A stretch of DNA of 64,000 nucleotides. It comes from a bacterium (GTDB lineage: Bacteria; Patescibacteriota; Minisyncoccia; Phycocordibacterales; Zambryskibacteraceae). The notes under the pieces are model-generated. The model saw nothing but the letters and a program-made list of their open reading frames with translations. It made no database searches and was not told the DNA's origin. The stretch is from contig JAUSGI010000008.1 in the NCBI GenBank assembly GCA_030649135.1, forward strand, positions 96,001 to 160,000, given 5' to 3'. Position 1 is the stretch's first letter. Every line of letters begins with the position of its first letter. Below, one piece after another: positions 10,097-54,616 of this stretch. The translations under genes were made by a program, and so were the position numbers.

Positions 10097-10133
10097 TGTG
10101 GCAGTTTGGGGAGGTCTGCCAACCTTTACTTCT

Positions 10134-10322
10134 CTACTCGGCGGGTCGGAACTTACGACGAGGCCGACTTTGTTTCAGGTCTTCGTCACACCCTACCATC
10201 TCCCTTTCTATCACATCCTGGTCAGAGAGGTCTTCATCCTCCGACCCATGCATCAGTCCAAAACCCTTAAGGAGTCGAATTTCCTTACTCGAAGGATCTA
10301 CGCCTGTCTTTCTCTTTTTCAT
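10134..10322 (-). CDS. hypothetical small acidic protein (62 aa), island gene 4
   Basis: Perfect SD (tAAGGAGcccagATG), own terminator, no recognisable domain. Confidence 0.55.
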   Translation of the reverse strand: MKKRKTGVDPSSKEIRLLKGFGLMHGSEDEDLSDQDVIEREMVGCDEDLKQSRPRRKFRPAE

Positions 10323-10445
10323 CTGGGCTCCTTATGTCCTGCTTCCCTTTCGATTATGTTCAGGGTGAAGGCTTACAGACACTAACGCTCTGTCCTTTAG
10401 AGTGGCATGAACAAGCTAGTTTGTCAATTAGTTGTAATCGTTGTA

Positions 10446-10478
10446 TAGAAAAAGGACCCTCCATGCTGGCAGGGTCCC
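10446..10478 (-). terminator. rho-independent terminator of the 76-aa island gene
   Basis: On the minus strand, hairpin GGACCCT-gccagcatgg-AGGGTCC is followed by TTTTTC. It is homologous to the hairpin at 11444-11480. Confidence 0.7.
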
Positions 10479-10555
10479 GTTGTGAGTTGAGGCCGTGTCC
10501 TCAACTCGTTTGTACTTAGGCGTGACATCGGCACGCATTGGGATCTGAAACTCTG

Positions 10556-10786
10556 CTAGTCCCCGATCGCCCCACTTCGTGAGAACGGGCGAGAGACGCC
10601 CGGTAACACCCGGGACGGATCCATCCCGAGGCGCTGCCTCAGCCACGCGACCCACTCCGGATAGCTCGGAGTGAGAAGCACGACGACCTCGTCGTAGGTC
10701 GGCGTGTCCCCAAGCACGTCGCACACGGCTGGCAAAAGAAGCCGGCGTGTTTCCTTGTCGAGTCTCCGACCCGATGCGTCATTCAT
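10556..10786 (-). CDS. hypothetical protein (76 aa), island gene 3, high GC
   Basis: SD GAGGAGaaggcaATG. The protein sequence MNDASGRRLDKETRRLLLPAVCDVLGDTPTYDEV... has no recognisable domain. GC3 is high. Confidence 0.55.
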   Translation of the reverse strand: MNDASGRRLDKETRRLLLPAVCDVLGDTPTYDEVVVLLTPSYPEWVAWLRQRLGMDPSRVLPGVSRPFSRSGAIGD

Positions 10787-11019
10787 TGCCTTCTCCTCAT
10801 CGCGCTTTGCGCGACTTTAAACATTTAGCAGTGCGTCCTCTTGCGAGGCCTATACGCACTGCGGTTCAGCCCCCTCTGTGCGGGGAATCGATACTTGATT
10901 ATATTTTCTTTCTCAAAGAACTAACTGTTTCGCCCTTTCGGACTCATCAGCGCAGATACACATCTGCGAACAGCGGGAAGTTTTGCTGAGATACTTCCCG
11001 AAACTCTGGGTTTGCACGG

Positions 11020-11340
11020 TTACCCCTTCTTCTTCTTGCTACCGGCACCCATGCCAGCGGCCATCCGGCGCTGCTCCTCCGCGCGCTCGCTCCGGTGGGC
11101 GAGGTAGCGCTTGTGCGCCGCCTCACGGATGGAGGCCGAGAACTCGGTCTCCTTCCGACGCCGCTCGGACAGCATGCGCCTGGCGCACGCCAGGCGTGGC
11201 CGCCAGAAATCGGAGGTCGCGAGTTGCTTGTCGAGCTCGACCGCGGCGATATCCGCCGCAACGGTCGAAGTGGCGACCTGCACCGGCAGGGTGCAGGCCA
11301 GAAACTCTATCACTCGGCCAATGGAGCGTGTCGCATTCAT
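11020..11340 (-). CDS. hypothetical Arg/Lys-rich protein (106 aa), island gene 2, high GC
   Basis: SD tAAGGAGaacgccATG, consensus promoter upstream, ends ...AGMGAGSKKKKG. GC is about 70%. Confidence 0.6.
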   Translation of the reverse strand: MNATRSIGRVIEFLACTLPVQVATSTVAADIAAVELDKQLATSDFWRPRLACARRMLSERRRKETEFSASIREAAHKRYLAHRSERAEEQRRMAAGMGAGSKKKKG

Positions 11341-11401
11341 GGCGTTCTCCTTATCGTGCCTCCCCTTCGTCTATACTTAGGGTGAGGACTTTCTAGCTAC
11401 A

Positions 11402-11430
11402 ATGATAGCATAATACAACTTATTTGTCAA
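11402..11430 (-). promoter_or_regulatory. consensus sigma70 promoter TTGACA-N17-TATCAT for island gene 2
   Basis: Reverse complement: TTGACA aataagttgtattatgc TATCAT, about 55 nt upstream of the SD. Confidence 0.55.
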
Positions 11431-11443
11431 TGGCTTTAAATAG

Positions 11444-11480
11444 TTAAAAGTAAAAGGGCCCTCCGTGTAGGCAGGGCCCA
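11444..11480 (-). terminator. rho-independent terminator of island gene 1
   Basis: On the minus strand: GGGCCCT-gcctacacgg-AGGGCCC followed by TTTTACTTTT. Confidence 0.65.
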
Positions 11481-11498
11481 GTCGAAACGCCACCTAGT

Positions 11499-11894
11499 CT
11501 AGTAACTGGTGGGGAAAGCAGATGTCAGCGCCTCCCCCTGGTCGCTTGCCGGGTTGGGGTTGAACCAAACCCGAGAGATGGACCCATGGCCGATGTGATA
11601 CACGCCGGCCAGAGTACATGAGCCATCCCGCTGTGCGGGGTGATGTACGAACACCCCGAAACGCAGACGGGCCAGCGCGGCCGCGATGCAGAACGGCACA
11701 TCCGCGACGGCATAGACGAAGCCATCGCCATGCTCGCGGACGTAGTCCGCGAGCCCATCCGTGGTGACGAACACCGTGGGGTCCTTCACGATCTCCACGT
11801 AAACACCGTGGAGAGTTCGCATCGCCCGCCGCTGTGTGGGCGACATGTCGTAACGCGATAACCAATAAATCCTCCCGATGTAAATTCTGTTCAT
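11499..11894 (-). CDS. hypothetical protein (131 aa), island gene 1, high GC
   Basis: Start MNRIYIGRIYW... preceded by GGGGGAaccATG. No recognisable family. Has its own promoter and terminator. Confidence 0.55.
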   Translation of the reverse strand: MNRIYIGRIYWLSRYDMSPTQRRAMRTLHGVYVEIVKDPTVFVTTDGLADYVREHGDGFVYAVADVPFCIAAALARLRFGVFVHHPAQRDGSCTLAGVYHIGHGSISRVWFNPNPASDQGEALTSAFPTSY

Positions 11895-11959
11895 GGTTCC
11901 CCCACTCTGCCTCCCATTTCTCGGAGGGCTATAGGTAATACAACCTTGGTCTGCTCTCA

Positions 11960-11988
11960 CTAATAGCACAGCACAATTCTCTTGTCAA
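11960..11988 (-). promoter_or_regulatory. sigma70-like promoter TTGACA-N17-TATTAG for island gene 1
   Basis: Reverse complement: TTGACA agagaattgtgctgtgc TATTAG. Confidence 0.45.
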
Positions 11989-26681: not shown

Positions 26682-27661
26682 GAACGTAGTATATCAGATA
26701 CTATTTTGTTAACCTCGTTTGCGTTGTTCGTTTCCATAAGTTTGGCGCGTAAATCCCCTGCTTTATCAAAGCCCGTAACGTAGGCCTTAAAATGTTTCTT
26801 CATCACAGAAAAGTTTTTGTACCCACCGAGCAGTTCTTCAAATAACTTTGTGTGCTCAACCAGCACCCGCAGTTTTTCTTCGGTTGCCGGAACATATCCT
26901 TCCACAAATAGCCACGGGTTTCCGAAAATGGCCCGGCCGAGCATGACACCATCACAGCCCGTCTCTTCGACTCTCATCCTTGCTTCTTTCAAATCTTTAA
27001 CATCCCCATTACCCAAAATTAAAGTGTCTTTACCACTTGCATCACGAATCTCGACTGCCAGTTTGACAAACTCCCAACGAGCGGGCACCTTCGACATTTC
27101 TTTCCTGGTACGAGCATGAATGGTAACCATCGCCACTCCCTCTTTAAGCATTTCTGACAGCCAGCTCTCCAGGTCAGGACGACTGTACCCTATACGAGTT
27201 TTGACCGAGACAGGTAGTGTGCTAGCCCCTTCTTTAGCCGCCCTTACAAGCTCCCGAGCCAGCACCACGTTCTTCATAAGTGATGCGCCGGCACCTTGTT
27301 TCTCGATACTTTTGTCCGGACAACCCATATTTATATCGACACCATCAAAGCCAAGCTCCTTTGCGAGCTCGGCGGCTTTTTTCATATGTTCCGGAGAGGA
27401 GGTAAAGAATTGCGCCACGATTGGCCGCTCCGCTTCGCTATATTCCAGATTCTTCAAAAGTTTCTTTTTCCCCTCTTCCGGCGCAAGTGCCAAGCCGTCG
27501 GCAGAAGTAAATTCTGTCCACATCACGGCGGGTTTACCCCGCCCACCTAGGCGGGGCGAGCCGTACTTAGCGATTATTCTGCGAAAAGCGGCATCCGTAA
27601 CATCCGCCATGGGAGCGAGGACGAAAACAGGTTTTTCTATTTTCTGCCAGAAATTATCCAT
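26678..27661 (-). CDS. tRNA-dihydrouridine synthase
   Basis: VLAPMADVTDAAFR..., GVDINMGCP, TIHARTR motifs. Confidence 0.9.
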   Translation of the reverse strand: MDNFWQKIEKPVFVLAPMADVTDAAFRRIIAKYGSPRLGGRGKPAVMWTEFTSADGLALAPEEGKKKLLKNLEYSEAERPIVAQFFTSSPEHMKKAAELAKELGFDGVDINMGCPDKSIEKQGAGASLMKNVVLARELVRAAKEGASTLPVSVKTRIGYSRPDLESWLSEMLKEGVAMVTIHARTRKEMSKVPARWEFVKLAVEIRDASGKDTLILGNGDVKDLKEARMRVEETGCDGVMLGRAIFGNPWLFVEGYVPATEEKLRVLVEHTKLFEELLGGYKNFSVMKKHFKAYVTGFDKAGDLRAKLMETNNANEVNKIVSDILRS

Positions 27662-30002
27662 TCACGTCCTTTTCCGTCAATTCTATTTCCGAGCCTGAAG
27701 TAATTTCACCGGATATCATCTTCTTGGCAATAACCTGTTCAACAGTCTCCTGTATGGCGCGATTAAGCGGCCGGGCACCGAACTTCGGGTCCATACCTTT
27801 TTTGGTTAGAAATGATATCAAAGAGTCGCTGATTTTAAGAGTGATGCCTTGTTTCTTCAGACGTAAGGTGAGGTGGGACAATAAGCGTTTAGACACCTCA
27901 CGTAAAGATGCTTCGTCGAGGGGATGGAATAGTATCACGCCGTCAAAGCGATTCAATAACTCCGGTTTGAAAATTCCCTTGGCGATTATCTCATTAATAA
28001 TCGTTTCGCGCGCCAGGGAAAGGTCCTTACCGGACTTGACGTATTCAAAGATGAGGTCACTCCCAGCGTTGGAGGTGGCGACAATGATGACATTTCTGGC
28101 ACTCACCTTTTCGCCCCGCATGTCCGAAAAGATTCCCTCATCTATAATCTGGAGAAATAAGTCCAGTACTTTCGAATCTGTTTTTTCAAATTCATCAAGC
28201 AAAAGAACGCCATACGGGTTCTCACGAAGCAAAGTAGTAAGCGTCCCCGGCGTCTTGGACTCAAATGAGCCTATCAATCTGTTTAACGAGTCCGGAGCAT
28301 TATATTCGGACATGTCGAGACGAAGTAATTTGGATGCTTGGCCGAAAAAGACTTCCCCCAAAGCTTTAGCCGTTTCCGTTTTACCAACTCCGGTAGGGCC
28401 GATAAACAGAAAAGAGCCGGCGGGTCTTAACGGATTGCCTATGCCGGAGCGGGCGCGTCTGACAGCGTCGCTCACCGCCTTAATCGCATCATCTTGACCC
28501 ACAATCCTCTCCTTGAGAATAATCTCAAGATTCAAGAGCTTGTCTTTCTCTTCCGGTTTGACAAAACCGGTTGGTATGCCGGTTTTAGACTTGACCGCGG
28601 AGAGAATGTCTTCCTTATTCACTATCCCCCTTCCATCTTGGCTCACTTTCGCTGACGATGTCGCTATAAGATCCATGGCGCTGTCAGCAAGCGGTCTGTC
28701 CACAAAATATTGTTTGGATGCGGCCACAGCTTCAGAGAGCGCCGGGTAGGAAATCAAAATATTCATTTGTTTCTCCAAATGGTTGACCTCCGATTCAAGC
28801 ATTTGCACCAACGCGTCTTCATCGACCGGCAAGACATTTACTTTTTCAAAATGTTGTTTAATCTCGCCCAAGGGTTCGAGCAGACGCTGGTATTCCTCGG
28901 TATTGGAGACGCCCACAATCTGCATCTGCGACGAAGAGAGAAAGGGACTTAACAGGGCCAGCACAGAAACTCCGTAACTATTGCCCGCCGACAAAAAAGC
29001 GGCCATATTCGGTATGACGAATATGACATTACCGGCCCTTTCGGACTCTTGCAGCACCTTTATCAGTTCGCGTTCCAATATCTGACCATTACTTGCCGCC
29101 GCGGAAAGAGTGGAGATTTCAAAAACCCATATTTGTTTGTTGCTTAATGCGGCAGACACTTCGTCTTTCTCTATAAGTTTGTGGAGTTCCTCAAGCACTT
29201 CCATCTTCCCTACCCCGTCGTCACCGACAAGCAAAGCATTGGCTTCATGCGACCGGGACAGAGCAATTTCCAGAAGCTTGGCTTCTTCGATATGGTACCC
29301 TTCCTCACCCATTGAGTCGGAGATTATAAGTGGACGGGCATACTTCATCAGAGAAAATGATTTTCCATACGACCAATCCCGGCCTATGGGGTCTATTTTG
29401 AAAAGATTGTCTTTGCCCCACCATCTTTTTGATTTCAAGATATTAAATCTGACTGACGCGGTCCATGTCGCCGCTCCCAGAAATTCTTCCTCCGTAACGT
29501 GATGAGTGAGAATAAAGTTCTTGAATTCGATATCGGAAGTAAGCAATCCTCCTAGATATCCACGAAGGATGGAATGGCCTCTAGTTAACTTGAAAGAGGC
29601 CGATGTTACCTTAGACTTTCTGTTCGATAAAAAGTTCTTCTGGGATTCCTGGTCTATGCCACAACGCCAAAGTATTTCCCTTCCCAACTTGGCCGACATG
29701 AAGCCGTAAGTTAAATCGCCTTCCGGAGAACCGAAAACTATCAAGGCGAGCTCACAGGCAAATCTACCGGTATCTTTGGAACGCTTAAAATAAAGAGAGT
29801 AAAAGAAACAATCAAACAAAGAGAGTATGAGCCATAACGAGAAAAAGGCGAGACCAAGACCTATGGACCATATTGAAGTAATAGCGAATAATAAAATAAG
29901 GACGGTCTTCACAATACCGCGCGCACGTCGCGGTAAGGTTTGCTCAAGCAGATAAACCGGCTTCCAGGGGGTAAGTGTTTTCTTTAATGTTTCATAATGC
30001 AT
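27654..30002 (-). CDS. ClpA/ClpB-family double-AAA+ ATPase with N-terminal transmembrane segments and a degenerate first nucleotide-binding domain
   Basis: NBD2 is intact ([26 protein letters not shown], sensor). NBD1 has GDDGVGKM and no DE Walker B. Two to three TM helices lie at the N-terminus. Confidence 0.8.
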   Translation of the reverse strand: MHYETLKKTLTPWKPVYLLEQTLPRRARGIVKTVLILLFAITSIWSIGLGLAFFSLWLILSLFDCFFYSLYFKRSKDTGRFACELALIVFGSPEGDLTYGFMSAKLGREILWRCGIDQESQKNFLSNRKSKVTSASFKLTRGHSILRGYLGGLLTSDIEFKNFILTHHVTEEEFLGAATWTASVRFNILKSKRWWGKDNLFKIDPIGRDWSYGKSFSLMKYARPLIISDSMGEEGYHIEEAKLLEIALSRSHEANALLVGDDGVGKMEVLEELHKLIEKDEVSAALSNKQIWVFEISTLSAAASNGQILERELIKVLQESERAGNVIFVIPNMAAFLSAGNSYGVSVLALLSPFLSSSQMQIVGVSNTEEYQRLLEPLGEIKQHFEKVNVLPVDEDALVQMLESEVNHLEKQMNILISYPALSEAVAASKQYFVDRPLADSAMDLIATSSAKVSQDGRGIVNKEDILSAVKSKTGIPTGFVKPEEKDKLLNLEIILKERIVGQDDAIKAVSDAVRRARSGIGNPLRPAGSFLFIGPTGVGKTETAKALGEVFFGQASKLLRLDMSEYNAPDSLNRLIGSFESKTPGTLTTLLRENPYGVLLLDEFEKTDSKVLDLFLQIIDEGIFSDMRGEKVSARNVIIVATSNAGSDLIFEYVKSGKDLSLARETIINEIIAKGIFKPELLNRFDGVILFHPLDEASLREVSKRLLSHLTLRLKKQGITLKISDSLISFLTKKGMDPKFGARPLNRAIQETVEQVIAKKMISGEITSGSEIELTEKDVNG

Positions 30003-30008
30003 AAATCC

Positions 30009-30398
30009 TTAGATAAAGAGATTAATTGCGCCGAGAGAAAAAAGAAACAAAATGATAAGCGGCACGAGCGCCCATAAAACAAACGCTACAGGACCGGCGA
30101 TAACCAGCAGAAGCAAAACGAGCAACCCGGCCGTCATCACAAACGTTTTTAAGACAAATCCCACCATGCGCATCAGAGTATTAACCACCAAAGTTTCGAA
30201 AAAAACTTCGGGGTTAAGCCCTTTTTGATACTCTTCATCAAGCCGTCCAAATGGGGCAAACCAAGTTCTAAAGAGAAGTCCCAAGGAGAAAAAGTGACGG
30301 ACGAACAAAATAAGATTTTTCCAATTGTGAAGTAAATCTTTTAAGCCATCGGTATAATGCCACCTGGTGTAGAAAGGTAAGAGATAGAAGAAACCCAT
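30009..30398 (-). CDS. hypothetical membrane protein
   Basis: 129 aa, 3-4 TM. Confidence 0.4.
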   Translation of the reverse strand: MGFFYLLPFYTRWHYTDGLKDLLHNWKNLILFVRHFFSLGLLFRTWFAPFGRLDEEYQKGLNPEVFFETLVVNTLMRMVGFVLKTFVMTAGLLVLLLLVIAGPVAFVLWALVPLIILFLFSLGAINLFI

Positions 30399-30416: not shown

Positions 30417-31232
30417 TTAATCTTTGAATTTGTAGAATACTTTATTTTCGGTACGCAAATCGAGGTAGCGTATCCTGTCGAAGAAATCACTTTGGGCTTT
30501 GATGGCGGGGTCGGAGAGAAACGCCTCCAAGTTCGAGCGGATAAGGACGAGATCGTCCTCCCTTCGCCATATAATCTGACCTCCCTCGGACAGCCCGAGC
30601 TTGTAGTCCTCGCTTCCGACTTCCATGGTCAAAGGTTGAATCTTGAGTGCCGCCAAATTTTCTATAAACTTTGAAAGTAATCGAAAATCTTGAATAGGAG
30701 TGAATCTTTTACCCACGGGACTCTCGGCCTGGTTAGGAGCAAGGTAGGCAAAGTAGACTCCATCCGAAAAGGAGGGCGCGGGAGCAAAAATGAATCCCTC
30801 TTCGTCCAGGAAAAAACATTCGGGAGTGCAGTAAAGGGCAAAAGGCATACGCTCGAGAACTGCTACGAGCAACTCCTGTTGTTCCCCTAAATCCAAATTA
30901 ACAGACTTGAACCTAGGAAATTCTCCAAGCAGATTTTCTCTGATGGCACGCCGCGGATAGATGAGAACATTGGCCCGGGGAATAAGCCAAAGATAGTAAC
31001 CTGCAAGCCCGCGTCTGACCGTTTGGATAATTTCTTCTTTATCAACCACATTCTCTCCCAAAATCGTGACATCGGTTATTTGAAAGCGTTCCAGACGAGA
31101 AAGATAGATTAGCCAAGAAAGAATGGACAGGAATCCAATAGAAAGCAGGGTAAGCCGGATAAGTCTCCTCCTTTTCTTCTTCTCATAGAATTCTCGCGAG
31201 TTAAGGACCCTGCCACTCGAAACAATTTTCAT
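30417..31232 (-). CDS. ftsQ: cell-division protein FtsQ/DivIB-like (POTRA)
   Basis: TM anchor followed by a POTRA-like segment (ITDVTILGENVVDKEEI), plus position next to a Mur ligase fragment. Confidence 0.55.
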   Translation of the reverse strand: MKIVSSGRVLNSREFYEKKKRRRLIRLTLLSIGFLSILSWLIYLSRLERFQITDVTILGENVVDKEEIIQTVRRGLAGYYLWLIPRANVLIYPRRAIRENLLGEFPRFKSVNLDLGEQQELLVAVLERMPFALYCTPECFFLDEEGFIFAPAPSFSDGVYFAYLAPNQAESPVGKRFTPIQDFRLLSKFIENLAALKIQPLTMEVGSEDYKLGLSEGGQIIWRREDDLVLIRSNLEAFLSDPAIKAQSDFFDRIRYLDLRTENKVFYKFKD

Positions 31233-31262: not shown

Positions 31263-31844
31263 TTAGAAAAAAGAAATGTGATGAGGCCGATACATCGAGT
31301 ACTCAAGACAGAGAACCTCGTGTGATGGGTCCATGTAGTTGACTATCCAAGACGATAGATTGAGTGGGGTCAGACGCTTCGAATAAATGCGTCCGCACTC
31401 AAACCGTTTGGATAGAATGCTCTGGATCATGGCGGCGGTTGTCGTCTTACCGACACTTCCAGTAACTCCCACTACTAGTGGGTTGAGAATCGAAAGAACG
31501 TACTCCCGCAGTTGATTGATTGCGAGAAACACGTCGTGAACACGGATATATTTCAGGCCGTACATGTCGCCGTCGGAGACTCTGCCATCGACCACGAAGA
31601 CGATATTGCTTCTTTGTCGAAGTTTGGGGATATTTTTGGTACGATCAAACGCGTTGATGTACCAACCCTCTTCTTTCGGATTGTCTTTATAGACTACGAA
31701 GTAGAGTTCGTTTCCCTCTCTAACACCGCCTGTCTCAAACTCCCTGATGTAGGCGACGTTGAGTCTCATGAAAGATGTTCCGTCACTGACGTTGTGAACC
31801 TCTGCTTCCCAGATGGCTCTGATCGTCTCGATACTTATTTGCAC
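31263..31844 (-). pseudogene. Mur ligase (MurF-like) N-terminal fragment, truncated after the P-loop
   Basis: VVGVTGSVGKTTTAAM P-loop at residues about 135-150. The ORF stops about 45 aa later, where full Mur ligases continue another 250 aa or more. Confidence 0.55.
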
Positions 31845-47575: not shown

Positions 47576-50251
47576 CTATTTCAGCGCAGGTTCTCTGCTT
47601 GATACAACTGTACTCACATGACCCGAGCGTTTGCTCCTCTTAATATCGAAAGTAAATTGGCCATCTTTCACATCAACCGAAACCGTACCACCGGAAAGCA
47701 CTTTATTGGATATCATCATGGAAGCCACCGGGTTCAGAATTTTTTCCTGAATCAGACGCTTCAGGGGTCTTGCTCCGTACTGTGGATTATAACCTTCTGC
47801 GGCCAAGAGTTCCGACACCGACTCCATGACCGAAAGGTTGATTTCCTTTTCTGCGAGACGCTTCTTAATGATATCGATTTGGATATTAACAATTTCTTTG
47901 ATTGCCTCCTTGGAGAGTATGTCGAAGATAATAATATCGTCAAGACGGTTGAGAAATTCCGGTCGGAAATGCTCTTTGAGGGTCGAGAGCACTTTCTCTT
48001 TAACACCCTCGTAAGTTTCCTTCTCGCCACTGTTGAAGCCGATGGATTGCATCTTGTCTATGTATTGGGCACCAATGTTTGAGGTCATGATGATGACCGT
48101 GTTTTTGAAATTAATAACCCTACCCTTGGCATCGGTCAGACGACCATTATCGAGGATTTGCAATAAAATGTTAAACACCTCCGGATGCGCCTTCTCAATC
48201 TCATCGAAAAGGATGACCGAATATGGCCTGTGTCGCACAGACTCGGCAAAACTGGAACCTTCTTCGAAGCCGACGTATCCCGGTGGCGCGCCAATCAGTT
48301 TGGAGACGGAATGCTTTTCCATAAACTCCGACATATCTACGCGGATGAGTGCCCGTTCATCGTCAAACATAAATTCCGCCAAGGCCTTAGTCAGCTCGGT
48401 CTTACCCACCCCAGTCGGACCAAGAAAGATGAAAGAACCGATAGGACGATTGGGGTCGGAGATACCGGCGCGCGAACGCTTGACGGTGTCAGCAATCTTT
48501 TTGACTGCCTCGCCTTGACCGACAATACGCTTCTTGAGGAATTCTTCCATTCGGGAAAGTTTGGCCGCTTCTTCTTCAAGCATTCTGGAAACCGGGATAC
48601 CGGTCCACCGACTGACTACCAGCGCGATATCGGGTGCGGTAATTTCTTCTTTCAGAATGCTCCTGGAACTTTGAAGTTTTTTCAGACGCTTGGCTTTGGC
48701 TTCTAATTCTTTCTCCAGACCCGGTATCTGGCCGTATCGAAGTTCCGCCGCGCGGGAAAGGTCGGCGCGTGCCTCCGCCGCTTCGGCCTCAAGTCGCAGA
48801 GTTCCCAGAGTTTTTTTAATCTCCTTGATTTCCCCTACCGTTTCTTTCTCATTTTTCCACTTCAACTCTATCTCCGAAGTCTTCTCGCGCAAATCGGCAA
48901 TATCTTTGTCAATAACTTTCAGTCGTGCTTTCACTTTAGGGTTCCCGGACTCTTTCTTAAGTGCTTCCTTCTCGATATCTAACTTCATAATCTTGGAGTG
49001 GGCATCCTGAAGCACCGGCGGCATATTCTCGAGAGAAATTTTGAGAAACGAAGATGCCTCGTCTATAAGGTCTACCGCTTTATCCGGCAAAAACCTGTCA
49101 GTGATATAACGCGAAGAGAGATTAACGGCTGCTTGGATAGAATCATCGGTAATACGCACCCCATGATAGAGTTCGTACCTTTCTTTCAATCCACGCAAGA
49201 TGGTCACGGCATCATCGATAGAAGGTTCCTGAACATAAACGGGCTGGAAACGGCGGGTCAAAGCCGGGTCTTTCTCGATATGTTTCTGATATTCACGCAG
49301 AGTTGTGGCACCAATAGCCCGTAGTTCCCCTCGAGCGAGTGAAGGTTTGAGCATATTGGAGGCATCCATAGCCCCTTCCGCGGCACCGGCGCCGACGATG
49401 GTATGAATTTCATCTATAAACAGAACAATTTTGCCTTCCGATTTTTCGATTTCTTTAATGATATTTTTGAGCCGCTCTTCAAATTCGCCGCGGTACTTGG
49501 TGCCGGCAATCAAGAGTCCGATATCGAGAGACACCAATTCCTTATCCCGCAGAGATTCCGGGACGTTGCCGCTTGCCATGCGTAGTGCCAGTCCTTCGGC
49601 AATGGCAGTCTTACCGACGCCCGCTTCACCGATGAGAATCGGATTATTTTTGGTACGGCGGGAAAGAATTTGGATAATGCGCGAGATTTCATCATCGCGA
49701 CCAATAACCGGGTCGAGTTTATTTGCCTTGGCAAGCATGGTTAGGGAACGGGTGTATTTGGAAAGAGATTTATATTTCTTCGATTCTTTCGGCTCGGTGG
49801 GGCTGGTCTTTTTCAGTTCCTCAAGCACCTTTAGAATTGTTTGTCTGTCGATTTTAAATTTTAAAAGAAGTTCACGCGCTTCTCCCGGAACATCGAGTAC
49901 CGCGATAAATAGATGCTCGGTGGAAACAAATTCATCTCCCAGAGATTGGGCCACCTTGTTACTCGACTCGATAGTATGAGCCAGTTCCGGGGTGAGATAA
50001 ATCTGGTAGGAGGGCGAGATGGTCTGACTAGTCTCGGAATTTTCTATGGTATCGAGCACCGAATCGGTCAGGAGAATGGTATCGACATCCATCTTGTCCA
50101 AAATAGAAATGGCCATGCTCTCCTCCTGTAGCAAAAGAGCAGCCAAAAGATGCATGGGGTTGACGTGATTCTGGCCACGCTCAATAGCCAGCTCATGGGC
50201 CTTCCTTATAACCTCTTTTGCCTTAGTGGTGAAGTGGGCAAATGGCTGCAT
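47576..50251 (-). CDS. clpB: chaperone ClpB
   Basis: Two intact AAA+ modules, middle coiled-coil, 891 aa. Confidence 0.97.
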
Positions 50252-54008: not shown

Positions 54009-54041
54009 TAGGCTATTATAACCTACCCATAGTTAATATAG

Positions 54042-54112
54042 TGCGAGATGCGAGAATCGAACTCGCGCCCGATGCTTGGGAAGCACCAGTTCTGCCACTA
54101 AACTAATCTCGC
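54042..54112 (-). tRNA. tRNA-Gly(CCC)
   Basis: GCGAGAT.../ATCTCGC, D-stem GTTT/GAAC, anticodon stem GGTGC/GCATC, loop TTCCCAA. Confidence 0.8.
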
Positions 54113-54113
54113 A

Positions 54114-54200
54114 TGGTGCCCGGGGTGGGCATCGAACCCACACGACCTTGCGGTCACGAAATTTTAAGTCTCGCGCGTATACCAATTCCGCCACCCGGGC
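54114..54200 (-). tRNA. tRNA-Leu(TAA), type II, CCA encoded
   Basis: GCCCGGG/CCCGGGC, loop CTTAAAA, long variable arm, A + CCA. Confidence 0.82.
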
Positions 54201-54275
54201 TGGAGGCGTAGGCGGGAATCGAACCCGCGCATATCGGTTTTGCAGACCGCCGCGTTTCCACTTCGCCACTACGCC
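54201..54275 (-). tRNA. tRNA-Cys(GCA), CCA encoded
   Basis: GGCGTAG/CTACGCC, loop CTGCAAA, discriminator U + CCA. Directly abuts tRNA-Leu. Confidence 0.72.
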
Positions 54276-54348
54276 ATTGTCCAGCTAACTAACTTTTATA
54301 CATTATCATAATTGATAAATCATTGCTTTTTTGAAATACTGTACTCTT

Positions 54349-54391
54349 ATACCCCGCTTCACCCCGCCATGGCGGGGCGAGACGGGGCAAG
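54349..54391. repeat. GC-rich palindromic element (CCCCGCCATGGCGGGG) in the divergent tRNA promoter/leader region
   Basis: Family member; see 47472-47523. Confidence 0.45.
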
Positions 54392-54464
54392 CGCGCCTAT
54401 AGCTCAGCTGGTAGAGCAGATCCCTCTTAAGGATAAGGTCGCAGGTTCGATCCCTGCTGGGCGC
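54392..54464 (+). tRNA. tRNA-Lys(CTT)
   Basis: GCGCCTA TAGCTCAGCTGGTAGAGCA, loop CTCTTAA, variable AGGTC, T-loop TTCGATC. Confidence 0.85.
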
Positions 54465-54466
54465 AC

Positions 54467-54547
54467 TGGGCGGGTGGTGAAATGGTAGACACGCCAGTTT
54501 TAGGAACTGGTGCCGCAAGGCATGGAGGTTCAAGTCCTCTCCCGCCC
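54467..54547 (+). tRNA. tRNA-Leu(TAG), type II
   Basis: GGGCGGG/CCCGCCC, anticodon stem CCAGT/ACTGG, loop TTTAGGA, long variable arm. Confidence 0.8.
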
Positions 54548-54616
54548 ACAACAACATCTTTCCTTTTCTTCGATTTTTTGCTAAAATCAGCGATATAGTT
54601 AATCTAACAAAATAAT

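What the first reader, a model, noticed from the sequence alone, without database searches (positions are those of the whole stretch)
27654..30002. Membrane-anchored ClpA/B-like double-AAA+ ATPase with a dead first ATPase domain
In addition to a canonical clpB at 47576-50251, this 782-aa protein has 2-3 N-terminal TM helices replacing the Clp N-domain. Its NBD1 has a Walker A Lys but GDDGVGKM (Thr/Ser replaced by Met) and no DE Walker B. Its NBD2 is fully intact ([14 protein letters not shown], sensor-2). A membrane-tethered unfoldase or disaggregase with one pseudo-ATPase ring is unusual. It could act in membrane-protein quality control or as an adaptor for a membrane protease.
Basis: partly seen in the sequence, partly recalled or inferred. 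Interest (0 to 1): 0.5.

Follow-up and report, generated by a model that had tools for sequence, protein, structure and literature searches.

The report
Membrane Clp-like ATPase with small partner
This gene and the small membrane-protein gene just upstream form a conserved, undescribed pair in Patescibacteria: a membrane-anchored Clp/Hsp100-type ATPase with a dead first ring, a live second ring, and no canonical substrate-gripping, ClpP-docking or DnaK-coupling elements.

Summary
The ORF is real: window 27654-30002, minus strand, 782 aa. NBD1 has GDDGVGKM and no Walker B DE. The NBD2 catalytic residues are intact. A fully canonical ClpB lies at 47576-50251.

Two corrections:
- The two N-terminal TM helices precede, rather than replace, a strongly diverged Clp_N-like helical domain (aa 82-192).
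- NBD2 is not fully intact. Its GYVG pore loop is deleted, and the NBD1 pore-loop Tyr is also gone.

There is no M-domain and no ClpP-binding tripeptide.

All of this holds family-wide. More than 150 representatives at 50% identity have 0/150 intact NBD1 sites, 148/148 intact NBD2 catalytic residues and 0/150 GYVG.

It lies immediately upstream in 11 of 11 independent loci and is fused to the ATPase N-terminus in three homologues.

My reading is a Patescibacteria-specific two-component membrane AAA+ machine. It has one active ring and is independent of ClpP and DnaK. It more likely remodels a membrane partner than threads polypeptides. Function is inferred, not shown.

A probable orthologous pair in Southlakia epibionticum is dispensable, with a late growth-defect call in Tn-seq. 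I found no literature on the family.

The parts
27654..30002 (-). [quoted passage not shown]
   Evidence: ORF list and translation. Pfam AAA_2, ClpB_D2-small and a weak AAA_lid_9. Accession from the cluster look-up.
29784..29930 (-). Two-helix transmembrane hairpin (aa 25-73), preceded by a conserved N-terminal helix (aa 1-24, nt 29931-30002)
   Evidence: Hydropathy in 21/21 homologues. AF2 helices H25-45 and H47-73/78, pLDDT about 90.
29427..29759 (-). Diverged Clp_N-like helical domain (aa 82-192)
29337..29426 (-). Family-specific Trp-rich motif RWW..(E/D)NL.(R/K)I.GIG(K/R)DW(A/S)YG..Y.L..Y (aa 193-222), between the N-domain and NBD1. Part of it is low-confidence in the models.
   Evidence: W195 145/150, L200 143/150, G213 142/150, L218 141/150. 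Mean pairwise identity 0.43 against 0.23-0.31 for its neighbours. pLDDT below 50 at aa 204-214.
28629..29285 (-). NBD1 (D1) pseudo-ATPase module with lid (aa 240-458). Walker A remnant GDDGVGKM at nt 29202-29225. Walker B position VIFVIPN at nt 29007-29027.
   Evidence: Alignment to ClpC. AAA fold in the AF2 model. Family statistics.
27927..28505 (-). NBD2 (D2) active ATPase module (aa 500-692): K541, T542, D603, E604, N645, R685. Shortened non-canonical pore loop GSFESKTPG at nt 28245-28271.
   Evidence: Pfam AAA_2 7.9e-38. Catalytic residues 148/148 and G-Y-V deleted in 147-148/148. Loop statistics.
27678..27926 (-). D2-small domain with sensor-2 R744 (aa 693-775)
   Evidence: Pfam ClpB_D2-small 6e-22. 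R744 148/148.
30009..30398 (-). Partner gene: 129-aa membrane protein (MDO8590254.1, 'hypothetical'). It has a conserved WHY...FFS...TLFSPW.R...R.VG region followed by a C-terminal TM hairpin. Its stop codon lies 6 nt before the ATPase ATG, and an AAGGA overlaps that stop.
   Evidence: Adjacent in 11/11 loci. Fused to the ATPase in P0264, P0247 and P0033. Family alignment. No Pfam, NCBIfam, PADLOC or PDB match. Junction sequence.

Best explanation
The gene encodes the large subunit of a two-component membrane AAA+ machine specific to Patescibacteria (CPR).

Anatomy (shown):
- An N-terminal helix and a two-TM hairpin hold the protein on the cytoplasmic face of the membrane.
- A strongly diverged Clp_N-like domain and a conserved Trp-rich motif follow.
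- NBD1 keeps the AAA fold but has lost Walker A, Walker B, sensor-1, the Arg fingers and the pore-loop Tyr. I read it as a structural spacer ring.
- NBD2 keeps every catalytic residue, including the trans-acting Arg finger. I infer that the protein forms a ring and hydrolyses ATP in NBD2 only.
- The co-transcribed 129-aa membrane protein is an obligate partner.

Mechanism (inferred): the protein cannot dock ClpP because it has no IGF/LGF loop. It cannot be driven by DnaK because it has no M-domain. It also lacks the aromatic-hydrophobic-Gly pore loops that grip polypeptides in both rings, and the residual D2 loop is poorly conserved. I therefore think it does not work as a processive unfoldase. 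More likely, NBD2 nucleotide cycling drives a conformational change through NBD1, the Trp motif and the N-domain onto the membrane-embedded partner or a complex containing it. That would be assembly, disassembly or gating at the membrane, comparable to Torsin or to the Pex1/Pex6-Pex15 arrangement rather than to ClpB or ClpA.
For: - Architecture and motifs.
- Family-wide statistics on 148-150 representatives at 50% identity:
  - NBD1 sites intact in 0/150.
  - NBD2 K/T/D/E/N/R/R in 148/148.
  - GYV deleted in 147-148/148.
  - Any aromatic in the residual loop in only 89/150.
  - ClpP tripeptide in 1/150.
  - No M-domain.
- Selection pattern: mean pairwise identity is 0.57 for NBD2 and 0.31 for NBD1, and the Trp motif at 0.43 is the best-conserved family-specific element.
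- The canonical ClpB in the same window keeps every lost feature, so the losses are specific to this paralogue.
- The partner gene is immediately upstream, overlapping or at most about 50 nt away, in 11/11 independent loci with otherwise different neighbours.
- The partner HMM hits the N-termini of three ATPase homologues, i.e. gene fusions, at E 1e-39, 6e-29 and 2e-17.
- The TM hairpin is found in all homologues.
- A probable orthologous pair in Southlakia epibionticum, SEML1_0701/0700, has the same gene arrangement and domain coordinates. Both genes get the same Tn-seq calls (NE, NE, GD) with parallel read decline (PMC10633639 Table S1/S2).
Against: - No experiment on this family was found, and the function is inferred from what is present and absent.
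- A Phe or Tyr sits at loop position 580 in 82/150 members, including this protein (F580), so a weak non-canonical grip cannot be excluded.
- Hexamer formation and partner binding were not modelled, because no multimer prediction was available.
- The topology of the partner's N-terminal region is unresolved: a borderline hydrophobic segment at aa 29-47 may or may not span the membrane.
- Membership of SEML1_0700 in the family is judged from its architecture only, not from sequence.
- Gene neighbourhoods outside the pair vary and give no pathway clue.
Confidence: 0.45

Rival explanations
1. This is the first reader's idea in sharpened form: a membrane-protein extractase or unfoldase. The hexamer sits under the membrane like FtsH or Msp1 and pulls membrane proteins or membrane-proximal aggregates through its pore. 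It would use the short NBD2 loop (GSF...) as a non-canonical grip, with the small protein acting as adaptor or substrate receptor.
For: - The geometry fits: TM hairpin, then N-domain, then rings, which places the pore entrance against the membrane.
- NBD2 has a complete catalytic set including the Arg finger.
- Phe or Tyr at loop position 580 in 82/150 members.
- Clp N-domains are adaptor-binding modules in ClpA and ClpC (established knowledge), and a Clp_N-like fold is retained here.
Against: - The Ar-hydrophobic-Gly motif is absent in both rings in all members.
- Loop positions 579-585 are variable and 61/150 members have no aromatic there, which is unlike known threading AAA+ motors.
- There is no peptidase-docking loop and no M-domain.
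Confidence: 0.3
2. A motor for moving something across or into the membrane through a channel formed by the small partner and the TM hairpins. The cargo could be protein, in the manner of Plasmodium HSP101-EXP2 (PTEX) or Bcs1, or another polymer.
For: - An obligate small membrane partner with a conserved TM hairpin (W109, P113).
- A ring would contribute 12 TM helices from the ATPase plus those of the partner (inference).
- The precedent of a ClpB-like ATPase docked on a membrane pore (established knowledge of PTEX).
Against: - HSP101 keeps its pore-loop tyrosines, whereas this family does not.
- The extracytoplasmic loop of the hairpin is 0-25 residues long and not conserved.
- There is no conserved cargo or secretion gene nearby.
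- The probable Saccharibacteria orthologues are non-essential.
Confidence: 0.1
3. An accessory stress or defence ATPase, such as an anti-phage system component, rather than a housekeeping machine.
For: - PADLOC models PDC-M37B (2.7e-33) and DolB (1.6e-32) match the protein.
- It is non-essential in Southlakia Tn-seq, if SEML1_0700 is an orthologue.
Against: - The PADLOC matches cover only the generic NBD2 region (aa 425-649), and the partner protein has no PADLOC hit.
- The pair sits among housekeeping genes (serS, dus, holB, infC, rplT) in different lineages.
- The pair was found in several differently named Patescibacteria lineages, and ATPase and partner keep the same arrangement in all 11 loci.
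- The Southlakia gene is flagged 'core family' in Table S1.
Confidence: 0.07
4. A decaying ClpB/ClpC paralogue (pseudogene in progress), or a mis-called start codon that creates a spurious hydrophobic N-terminus.
For: NBD1 is degenerate, and NCBIfam scores are far below the ClpA and ClpB cut-offs (362 vs 993; 402 vs 1232).
Against: - More than 150 full-length representatives at 50% identity score at least 790 bits.
- NBD2 catalytic residues are invariant.
- Family-specific motifs are conserved.
- The N-terminus aligns from Met1 in homologues.
- The start codon sits 6 nt after the partner's stop, with an AAGGA in front.
Confidence: 0.02

Closest known systems
ClpA / ClpC / ClpE (class-1 Clp/Hsp100 unfoldases that dock on ClpP)
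   Same: - Two tandem AAA+ modules, with NBD2 of the AAA_2 type plus a D2-small domain.
- Best sequence and fold matches are to ClpC: phmmer 3.7e-98, Foldseek E 4.6e-45.
- ClpA aligns in one contiguous stretch, so there is no long M-domain.
- A Clp_N-like N-domain.
   Different: - No IGL/LGF ClpP-docking loop (1/150).
- NBD1 is catalytically dead.
- Both Tyr pore loops are lost.
- An N-terminal TM hairpin is present.
- There is an obligate small membrane partner.
- The NCBIfam ClpA score is 362 against a cut-off of 993.
ClpB / Hsp104 disaggregases
   Same: NBD2 is 38% identical to the window's own ClpB over 341 aa. There is no ClpP loop.
   Different: - No coiled-coil M-domain: a 58-aa span against 180-186 aa.
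- No functional NBD1.
- No KYR or GYVG pore loops.
- Membrane-anchored.
- A canonical ClpB coexists in the same window.
Pex1/Pex6 with Pex15/Pex26 (eukaryotic peroxisomal type-II AAA+)
   Same: It resembles this system in how it may work. Both have N-domains, a catalytically inactive D1 ring and an active D2 ring. Both are held at a membrane together with a small membrane protein (established knowledge).
   Different: - Not homologous at the family level: Pex1/Pex6 belong to the classic AAA clade, not Hsp100.
- Pex1/Pex6 D2 keeps aromatic pore loops and threads Pex5.
- The Pex1/Pex6 ATPase itself has no TM segment.
Torsin ATPases (with LAP1/LULL1)
   Same: An AAA+ related to Hsp100 NBD2, associated with a membrane, lacking aromatic pore-loop residues, and working with a membrane-protein cofactor (PMC5425593 and PMC5638581, listed, plus established knowledge). 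One family member gave a faint Pfam Torsin hit, E 0.054.
   Different: - Torsin has a single AAA module and lacks its own Arg finger, which LAP1 supplies. Here R685 is invariant.
- Here a pseudo-ATPase NBD1 is present in cis.
- Torsin is eukaryotic and sits in the ER lumen.
FtsH / Msp1 (membrane-anchored AAA+ extractases)
   Same: An N-terminal TM anchor places the ring directly under the membrane. FtsH also has two N-terminal TM helices.
   Different: - FtsH and Msp1 have a single AAA ring of the classic clade with a conserved aromatic pore loop.
- FtsH carries a protease domain.
- Neither has a dead extra ring or a Clp_N-like domain.

Membership tests
Clp/Hsp100 class-1 superfamily (double AAA+ with AAA_2-type NBD2) | NBD2 of Pfam AAA_2 type followed by the ClpB_D2-small domain | tested here: met
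   PF07724 7.9e-38 (aa 526-687) and PF10431 6e-22 (aa 695-774).
Clp/Hsp100 class-1 superfamily (double AAA+ with AAA_2-type NBD2) | A first AAA+ module (NBD1) with lid, homologous to ClpA/B/C D1 | tested here: met
   Aligns to ClpC D1, aa 241-453, 84 bits. AAA_lid_9 1.3e-7. Five-strand AAA fold in the AF2 model. The fold is kept but the catalytic residues are not.
ClpB (TIGR03346) | Score above the curated equivalog cut-off | tested here: not met
   402 bits against a cut-off of 1232.
ClpB (TIGR03346) | Long coiled-coil M-domain inserted in NBD1 | tested here: not met
   The D1-lid to D2 span is 58 aa in 120/150 members, against 180-186 aa in ClpB.
ClpB (TIGR03346) | Two active ATP sites and Tyr pore loops (KYR in D1, GYVG in D2) | tested here: not met
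   D1 has K266 but M267, P331 and N332, and the Tyr position is N305. The D2 G-Y-V is deleted.
ClpA / ClpC / ClpE (ClpP-dependent unfoldases) | ClpP-docking [ILV]G[FL] loop between sensor-1 and the Arg-finger helix of NBD2 | tested here: not met
   The window protein reads SDLIFEYVKSGKDLSLARET. The motif occurs in 1/150 family members.
ClpA / ClpC / ClpE (ClpP-dependent unfoldases) | Score above the curated ClpA cut-off | tested here: not met
   TIGR02639 scores 362 against 993. NF008263 scores 292 against 1350.
ClpA / ClpC / ClpE (ClpP-dependent unfoldases) | Clp_N double-repeat N-domain | tested here: inconclusive
ClpA / ClpC / ClpE (ClpP-dependent unfoldases) | clpP present in the genome and physical association with ClpP | not testable with these tools
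   No clpP among the window ORFs scanned.
Torsin | Single AAA+ module that lacks its own Arg finger and depends on LAP1/LULL1 | tested here: not met
   Two modules are present, and R685 is invariant in 148/148.
New family proposed here (TM-hairpin Clp-like ATPase plus 129-aa partner) | Partner gene immediately upstream, or fused | tested here: met
   11/11 loci, plus 3 fusion proteins.
New family proposed here (TM-hairpin Clp-like ATPase plus 129-aa partner) | Physical complex between the ATPase and the partner, and ring formation | not testable with these tools
   No multimer prediction or experiment was available. Inferred from gene fusion and gene adjacency.

The most novel reading that the evidence does not exclude
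This would be a bacterial Hsp100 lineage that has given up polypeptide threading altogether. It would be a phylum-wide, Torsin-like membrane remodeller in Patescibacteria. Its single active ring would act on its own small membrane partner, for example to assemble, disassemble or gate an envelope or cell-surface complex. That would be a new mode of action for the Clp/Hsp100 family and a lineage-defining piece of CPR cell biology.
Probability: 0.3. Interest if true: 0.8.

Novelty: new variant of a known kind. Interest (0 to 1): 0.62.

Why it matters
Clp/Hsp100 ATPases are the textbook threading machines. Their tyrosine pore loops, the ClpP loop and the M-domain define how they work.

This is a large, conserved family: more than 150 clusters at 50% identity, and hundreds of partner sequences. 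It has lost all three elements and one ATP site. It has gained a membrane anchor and an obligate small membrane subunit.

If the family is not a threading motor, it extends what this scaffold can do and gives a bacterial counterpart to the poorly understood Torsins. If it does thread, it shows that a much-reduced pore loop is enough.

In either case it assigns two 'dark-matter' genes of Patescibacteria to one functional unit. One is annotated as a Clp protease subunit, which is probably misleading. The other is annotated as hypothetical. The pair can be tested directly in the genetically tractable Southlakia epibionticum.

Tried and rejected
- **Word-index search with the N-terminal 245 aa.** It returned one fragment only and was uninformative. 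The exhaustive profile search was used instead.
- **Genome-collection scan with the partner alignment.** The back-translated pattern was too narrow: 3 loci, 2 of them already known. It gave no usable phyletic profile.
- **Profile of the N-terminal region against PDB sequences.** Only TM-composition noise.
- **Profile of the partner against PDB sequences.** No hits.
- **Is the ATPase's own N-terminal helix and hairpin a paralogue of the partner?** hhalign gave probability 33% and E 5e-4, against E 0.17 for a reversed control. I leave this open and do not claim it.
- **Pfam 8xMP (PF24838).** One of 28 N-termini hit it at 1.2e-7. No other member did, and the literature search for the name found nothing relevant. 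Not pursued.
- **PADLOC.** The hits cover only the generic NBD2, so membership of a defence system is rejected.
- **ClpI of Actinomycetota (PMC10149685).** Considered as a possible dead-D1 precedent. It has intact ATPase modules and an M-domain, so it is not comparable.
- **Literature searches** for membrane-anchored Clp/Hsp100, or for CPR Clp-like ATPases. Nothing found.
- **Sequence check of SEML1_0700.** Attempted through the paper's supplements. No sequence is held there.
Full report
**1. The observation**

The coordinates 27654-30002 delimit an ORF on the minus strand that starts with ATG and encodes 782 aa.
- Pfam finds AAA_2 (aa 526-687, 7.9e-38), ClpB_D2-small (aa 695-774, 6e-22) and a weak AAA_lid_9 (aa 395-458). 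It finds no AAA hit on the first module and no Clp_N.
- NCBIfam ClpB and ClpA models match far below their cut-offs: 402 vs 1232 and 362 vs 993.
- The best solved relatives are ClpC (3.7e-98), ClpB (2e-95) and ClpA (1.8e-76, one contiguous stretch).
NBD1 Walker A is GDDGVGKM against GEPGVGKT, and the Walker B strand reads NVIFVIPNM against NIILFIDEL.
- NBD2 has [16 protein letters not shown], sensor-1 N645, Arg finger R685 and sensor-2 R744.
- The second Clp gene at 47576-50251 is a fully canonical ClpB. It has Clp_N x2, KYRGEFE and GYVG pore loops, both Walker sets and a 186-aa M-domain span.

**2. Two corrections to the observation**

(a) The hydrophobic N-terminus is a hairpin of two helices, not two to three.
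- It spans aa ~27-45 and 47-72, with positive charges on both flanks.
- AlphaFold2 models it with pLDDT about 90, and it is present in all 21 aligned homologues.

(b) The hairpin does not replace the N-domain.
- Residues 82-192 form an eight-helix domain.
- Profile-profile comparison with canonical Clp_N gives one repeat at E 2e-4, probability 47%.
- Foldseek alone is not significant, and Pfam Clp_N is not detected in 28 members.
- I call this a strongly diverged Clp_N-like domain, with moderate confidence.

(c) NBD2 is intact only as an ATPase.
- The pore loop [13 protein letters not shown] of ClpB/ClpC is replaced by GSFESKTPG, four residues shorter and without G-Y-V.
- The NBD1 pore loop KYRGEFE reads SNGQILE.
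- There is no M-domain, and the ClpP-loop region (ClpC KYVGFN) reads EYVKSG.

**3. The features are family traits**

- A profile of 21 full-length homologues was searched against 1.84 billion cluster representatives. It returned more than 150 full-length proteins (median length 818 aa) scoring 790-1049 bits, with no fall-off within the 150 listed.
- Named sources are all Patescibacteria/CPR: Zambryskibacteria, Lloydbacteria, Minisyncoccia, Paceibacterota, a Saccharibacteria-labelled MAG and 'Patescibacteria group'.
- NBD1, in an alignment of the window protein with 149 representatives: GxxxxGK[ST] is intact in 2, Walker B DE in 6, and both in 0. The Walker A Lys itself is kept in only 54.
- NBD1, in a joint alignment with 30 canonical ClpB/ClpC proteins: the family has also lost the pore-loop Tyr (now D/T/N/E/S), sensor-1 and both Arg fingers.
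- NBD2, in the same joint alignment: K541, T542, D603, E604, N645, R685 and R744 are each 148/148, and G-Y-V of the pore loop is deleted in 147-148/148.
- The residual loop (aa 579-585) is variable. Phe or Tyr at position 580 occurs in 82/150 members, and any aromatic in 89/150.
- A ClpP-type tripeptide occurs in 1/150, and the D1-D2 span is 58 aa in 120/150.
- Mean pairwise identity is 0.57 for the NBD2 large domain, 0.31 for NBD1 and 0.23 for the N-domain and TM hairpin.
- A Trp-rich motif between the N-domain and NBD1, RWW..(E/D)NL.(R/K)I.GIG(K/R)DW(A/S)YG..Y.L..Y, reaches 0.43 with W195 at 145/150. It is partly low-confidence in the models, as expected for an interaction motif.

**4. The missed partner**

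- Immediately upstream (30009-30398, minus strand) lies a 129-aa ORF. Its stop codon is 6 nt before the ATPase ATG, and an AAGGA overlaps that stop.
- The ATPase stop overlaps the start of dus by 8 nt, and holB follows.
- A homologous 126-132-aa ORF abuts or overlaps the ATPase start in every locus examined. (In L013 the called upstream gene is 160 aa and touches the contig end.) Loci were reached either from distant ATPase homologues (L001, L003, L004, L011, L012, L013) or from distant small-protein homologues (L006, L008, L009, L010).
- That makes 11 of 11 independent loci including the window, while the other neighbours differ. Partner-HMM E-values run from 2.5e-22 to 2.3e-51 for the seven loci scored; L001, L003 and L004 were matched by alignment.
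- The small protein has 329 detected homologues, all unnamed. It has no Pfam, NCBIfam, PADLOC or PDB-sequence match.
- Its invariant residues are W13, H14, Y15, F37, R77, G80, W109 and P113. It ends in a TM hairpin.
- Its HMM also matches the N-termini of three ATPase-family proteins: P0264 at 1e-39, P0247 at 6e-29 and P0033 at 2e-17. In P0264 the small-protein module replaces the ATPase's own hairpin and most of the N-domain, and is followed directly by the Trp motif.
- Strict adjacency together with independent fusions is strong evidence that the two products act as one unit. The P0264 fusion also places the partner's C-terminus in the cytoplasm.

**5. How it most likely works**

Shown:
- The domain order.
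- The dead NBD1 site and the conserved NBD2 catalytic residues, including the trans-acting Arg finger.
- The absence of the ClpP loop, the M-domain and the canonical pore loops.
- The obligate genetic linkage to the partner.

Inferred:
- Ring formation, from the conserved Arg finger and from homology.
- ATP hydrolysis only in NBD2.
- NBD1 as a structural spacer ring, as with the inactive rings of NSF and Pex1/Pex6 (established knowledge).
- The pore entrance and N-domains facing the membrane, where the partner sits.

The elements that grip polypeptides are missing, and the residual loop is not under strong constraint. I therefore favour nucleotide-driven remodelling of the partner, or of a complex built on it, over processive threading, at about 0.45. 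A translocation-motor reading gets 0.1, a defence or accessory reading 0.07 and a pseudogene or artefact reading 0.02.

**6. The only experimental lead**

- In the Tn-seq study of the cultivated Saccharibacterium Southlakia epibionticum (PMC10633639), SEML1_0700 is an 860-aa 'AAA family ATPase'. It has AAA_2 at aa 544-706 and D2-small at aa 713-792, with no Clp_N.
- It is preceded by the overlapping 127-aa hypothetical gene SEML1_0701 (Table S2; Table S1).
- Both genes are called non-essential at T0 and T1 and 'growth defect' at T2. Normalised reads decline in parallel: 4124, 2517, 1638 and 258, 157, 51.
- The paper does not discuss these genes.
- I could not obtain the sequences. Orthology is therefore inferred from architecture and gene arrangement only.

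**7. Comparison with known systems and novelty**

- The protein is a member of the Clp/Hsp100 class-1 superfamily by homology.
- It fails the defining tests for ClpB (cut-off score, M-domain, two active sites, Tyr loops) and for ClpA/C/E (cut-off score, ClpP loop).
- Functionally, the nearest analogies are:
  - Pex1/Pex6-Pex15: a dead D1, an active D2 and a small membrane protein.
  - Torsin: an Hsp100-D2-like AAA+ at a membrane, without aromatic pore residues.
  - FtsH/Msp1: membrane-anchored geometry.
- ClpI of Actinomycetota, a recently described extra Clp class, keeps intact ATPase modules and an M-domain and is not comparable.
- No paper describing this family or its partner was found.
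- I rate it a new variant of a known kind. It is widespread and conserved, its current annotation is probably misleading, and its function is open.

**8. Limits**

- No multimer modelling was available.
- There is no genome-wide phyletic profile.
- The genome outside the 64-kb window was not examined for clpP, ftsH or lon.
- The topology of the partner's N-terminal region is unresolved.
- The N-domain assignment is moderate.
- The functional model rests on the presence and absence of motifs.

Noticed in passing
window 10100-11900 (hammerhead-like match at 10922-10976, minus strand): A GC-rich stretch (0.52-0.70 in most 200-nt windows, against about 0.46 background) has no ORF above 137 aa between 10054 and 11493 (overlapping 123- and 156-aa ORFs lie at 11494-11969) and no Rfam family at gathering score. 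It contains a full-length but sub-threshold Hammerhead_3 (RF00008) match: 37.5 bits against a gathering score of 48.5, E 6e-6 in a 2.2-kb search. It may be a structured non-coding RNA or a ribozyme-bearing element.
   Followed up: partly
window 30417-31232 (minus strand): A 271-aa ORF just upstream of the partner gene has an N-terminal TM segment and a faint FtsQ match (NF004039, E 0.014). It has no Pfam hit. A 277-aa counterpart sits in the same position, after serS, in locus L004. It is a probable diverged FtsQ/DivIB, linked to the pair only in the closer relatives.
   Followed up: partly
window 31263-31844 (minus strand): A 193-aa ORF matches only the N-terminal ~110 residues of MurF (TIGR01143 positions 31-139 of 418). 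It looks like a truncated Mur ligase or a stand-alone N-terminal fragment.
   Followed up: no
protein P0123 (homologue, 1191 aa): One family member carries an extra C-terminal AAA_2/AAA_5 plus D2-small module, giving three AAA+ modules in one chain.
   Followed up: no
alignment A5 (N-termini of ATPase family members): One of 28 N-terminal regions hits Pfam PF24838, '8xMP octameric membrane protein', at E 1.2e-7. None of the others does. It could be a composition effect or a hint about how the TM hairpin oligomerises.
   Followed up: partly
proteins P0030, P0032, P0205, P0222, P0245, P0247, P0269 (divergent subclade): A subclade keeps the Walker B DE in NBD1 (for example VIDEFH) together with an odd P-loop, GEPGTG(R/K)(K/R)(T/S), which has one extra residue. 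It still lacks GYVG and, in the two members whose loci were examined (P0030, P0032), still has the partner gene; P0247 carries the partner fused. It may represent an intermediate stage of NBD1 decay.
   Followed up: partly
window 54041-54549: A cluster of five tRNA genes lies on both strands: Gly-CCC, Leu-TAA and Cys-GCA on the minus strand, Lys-CTT and Leu-TAG on the plus strand. The window holds 11 tRNAs in all and is otherwise an ordinary housekeeping region with groEL, RNase J, pyrG, topA, relA/spoT, infB, RNase R, smc, rnc and nusB.
   Followed up: no
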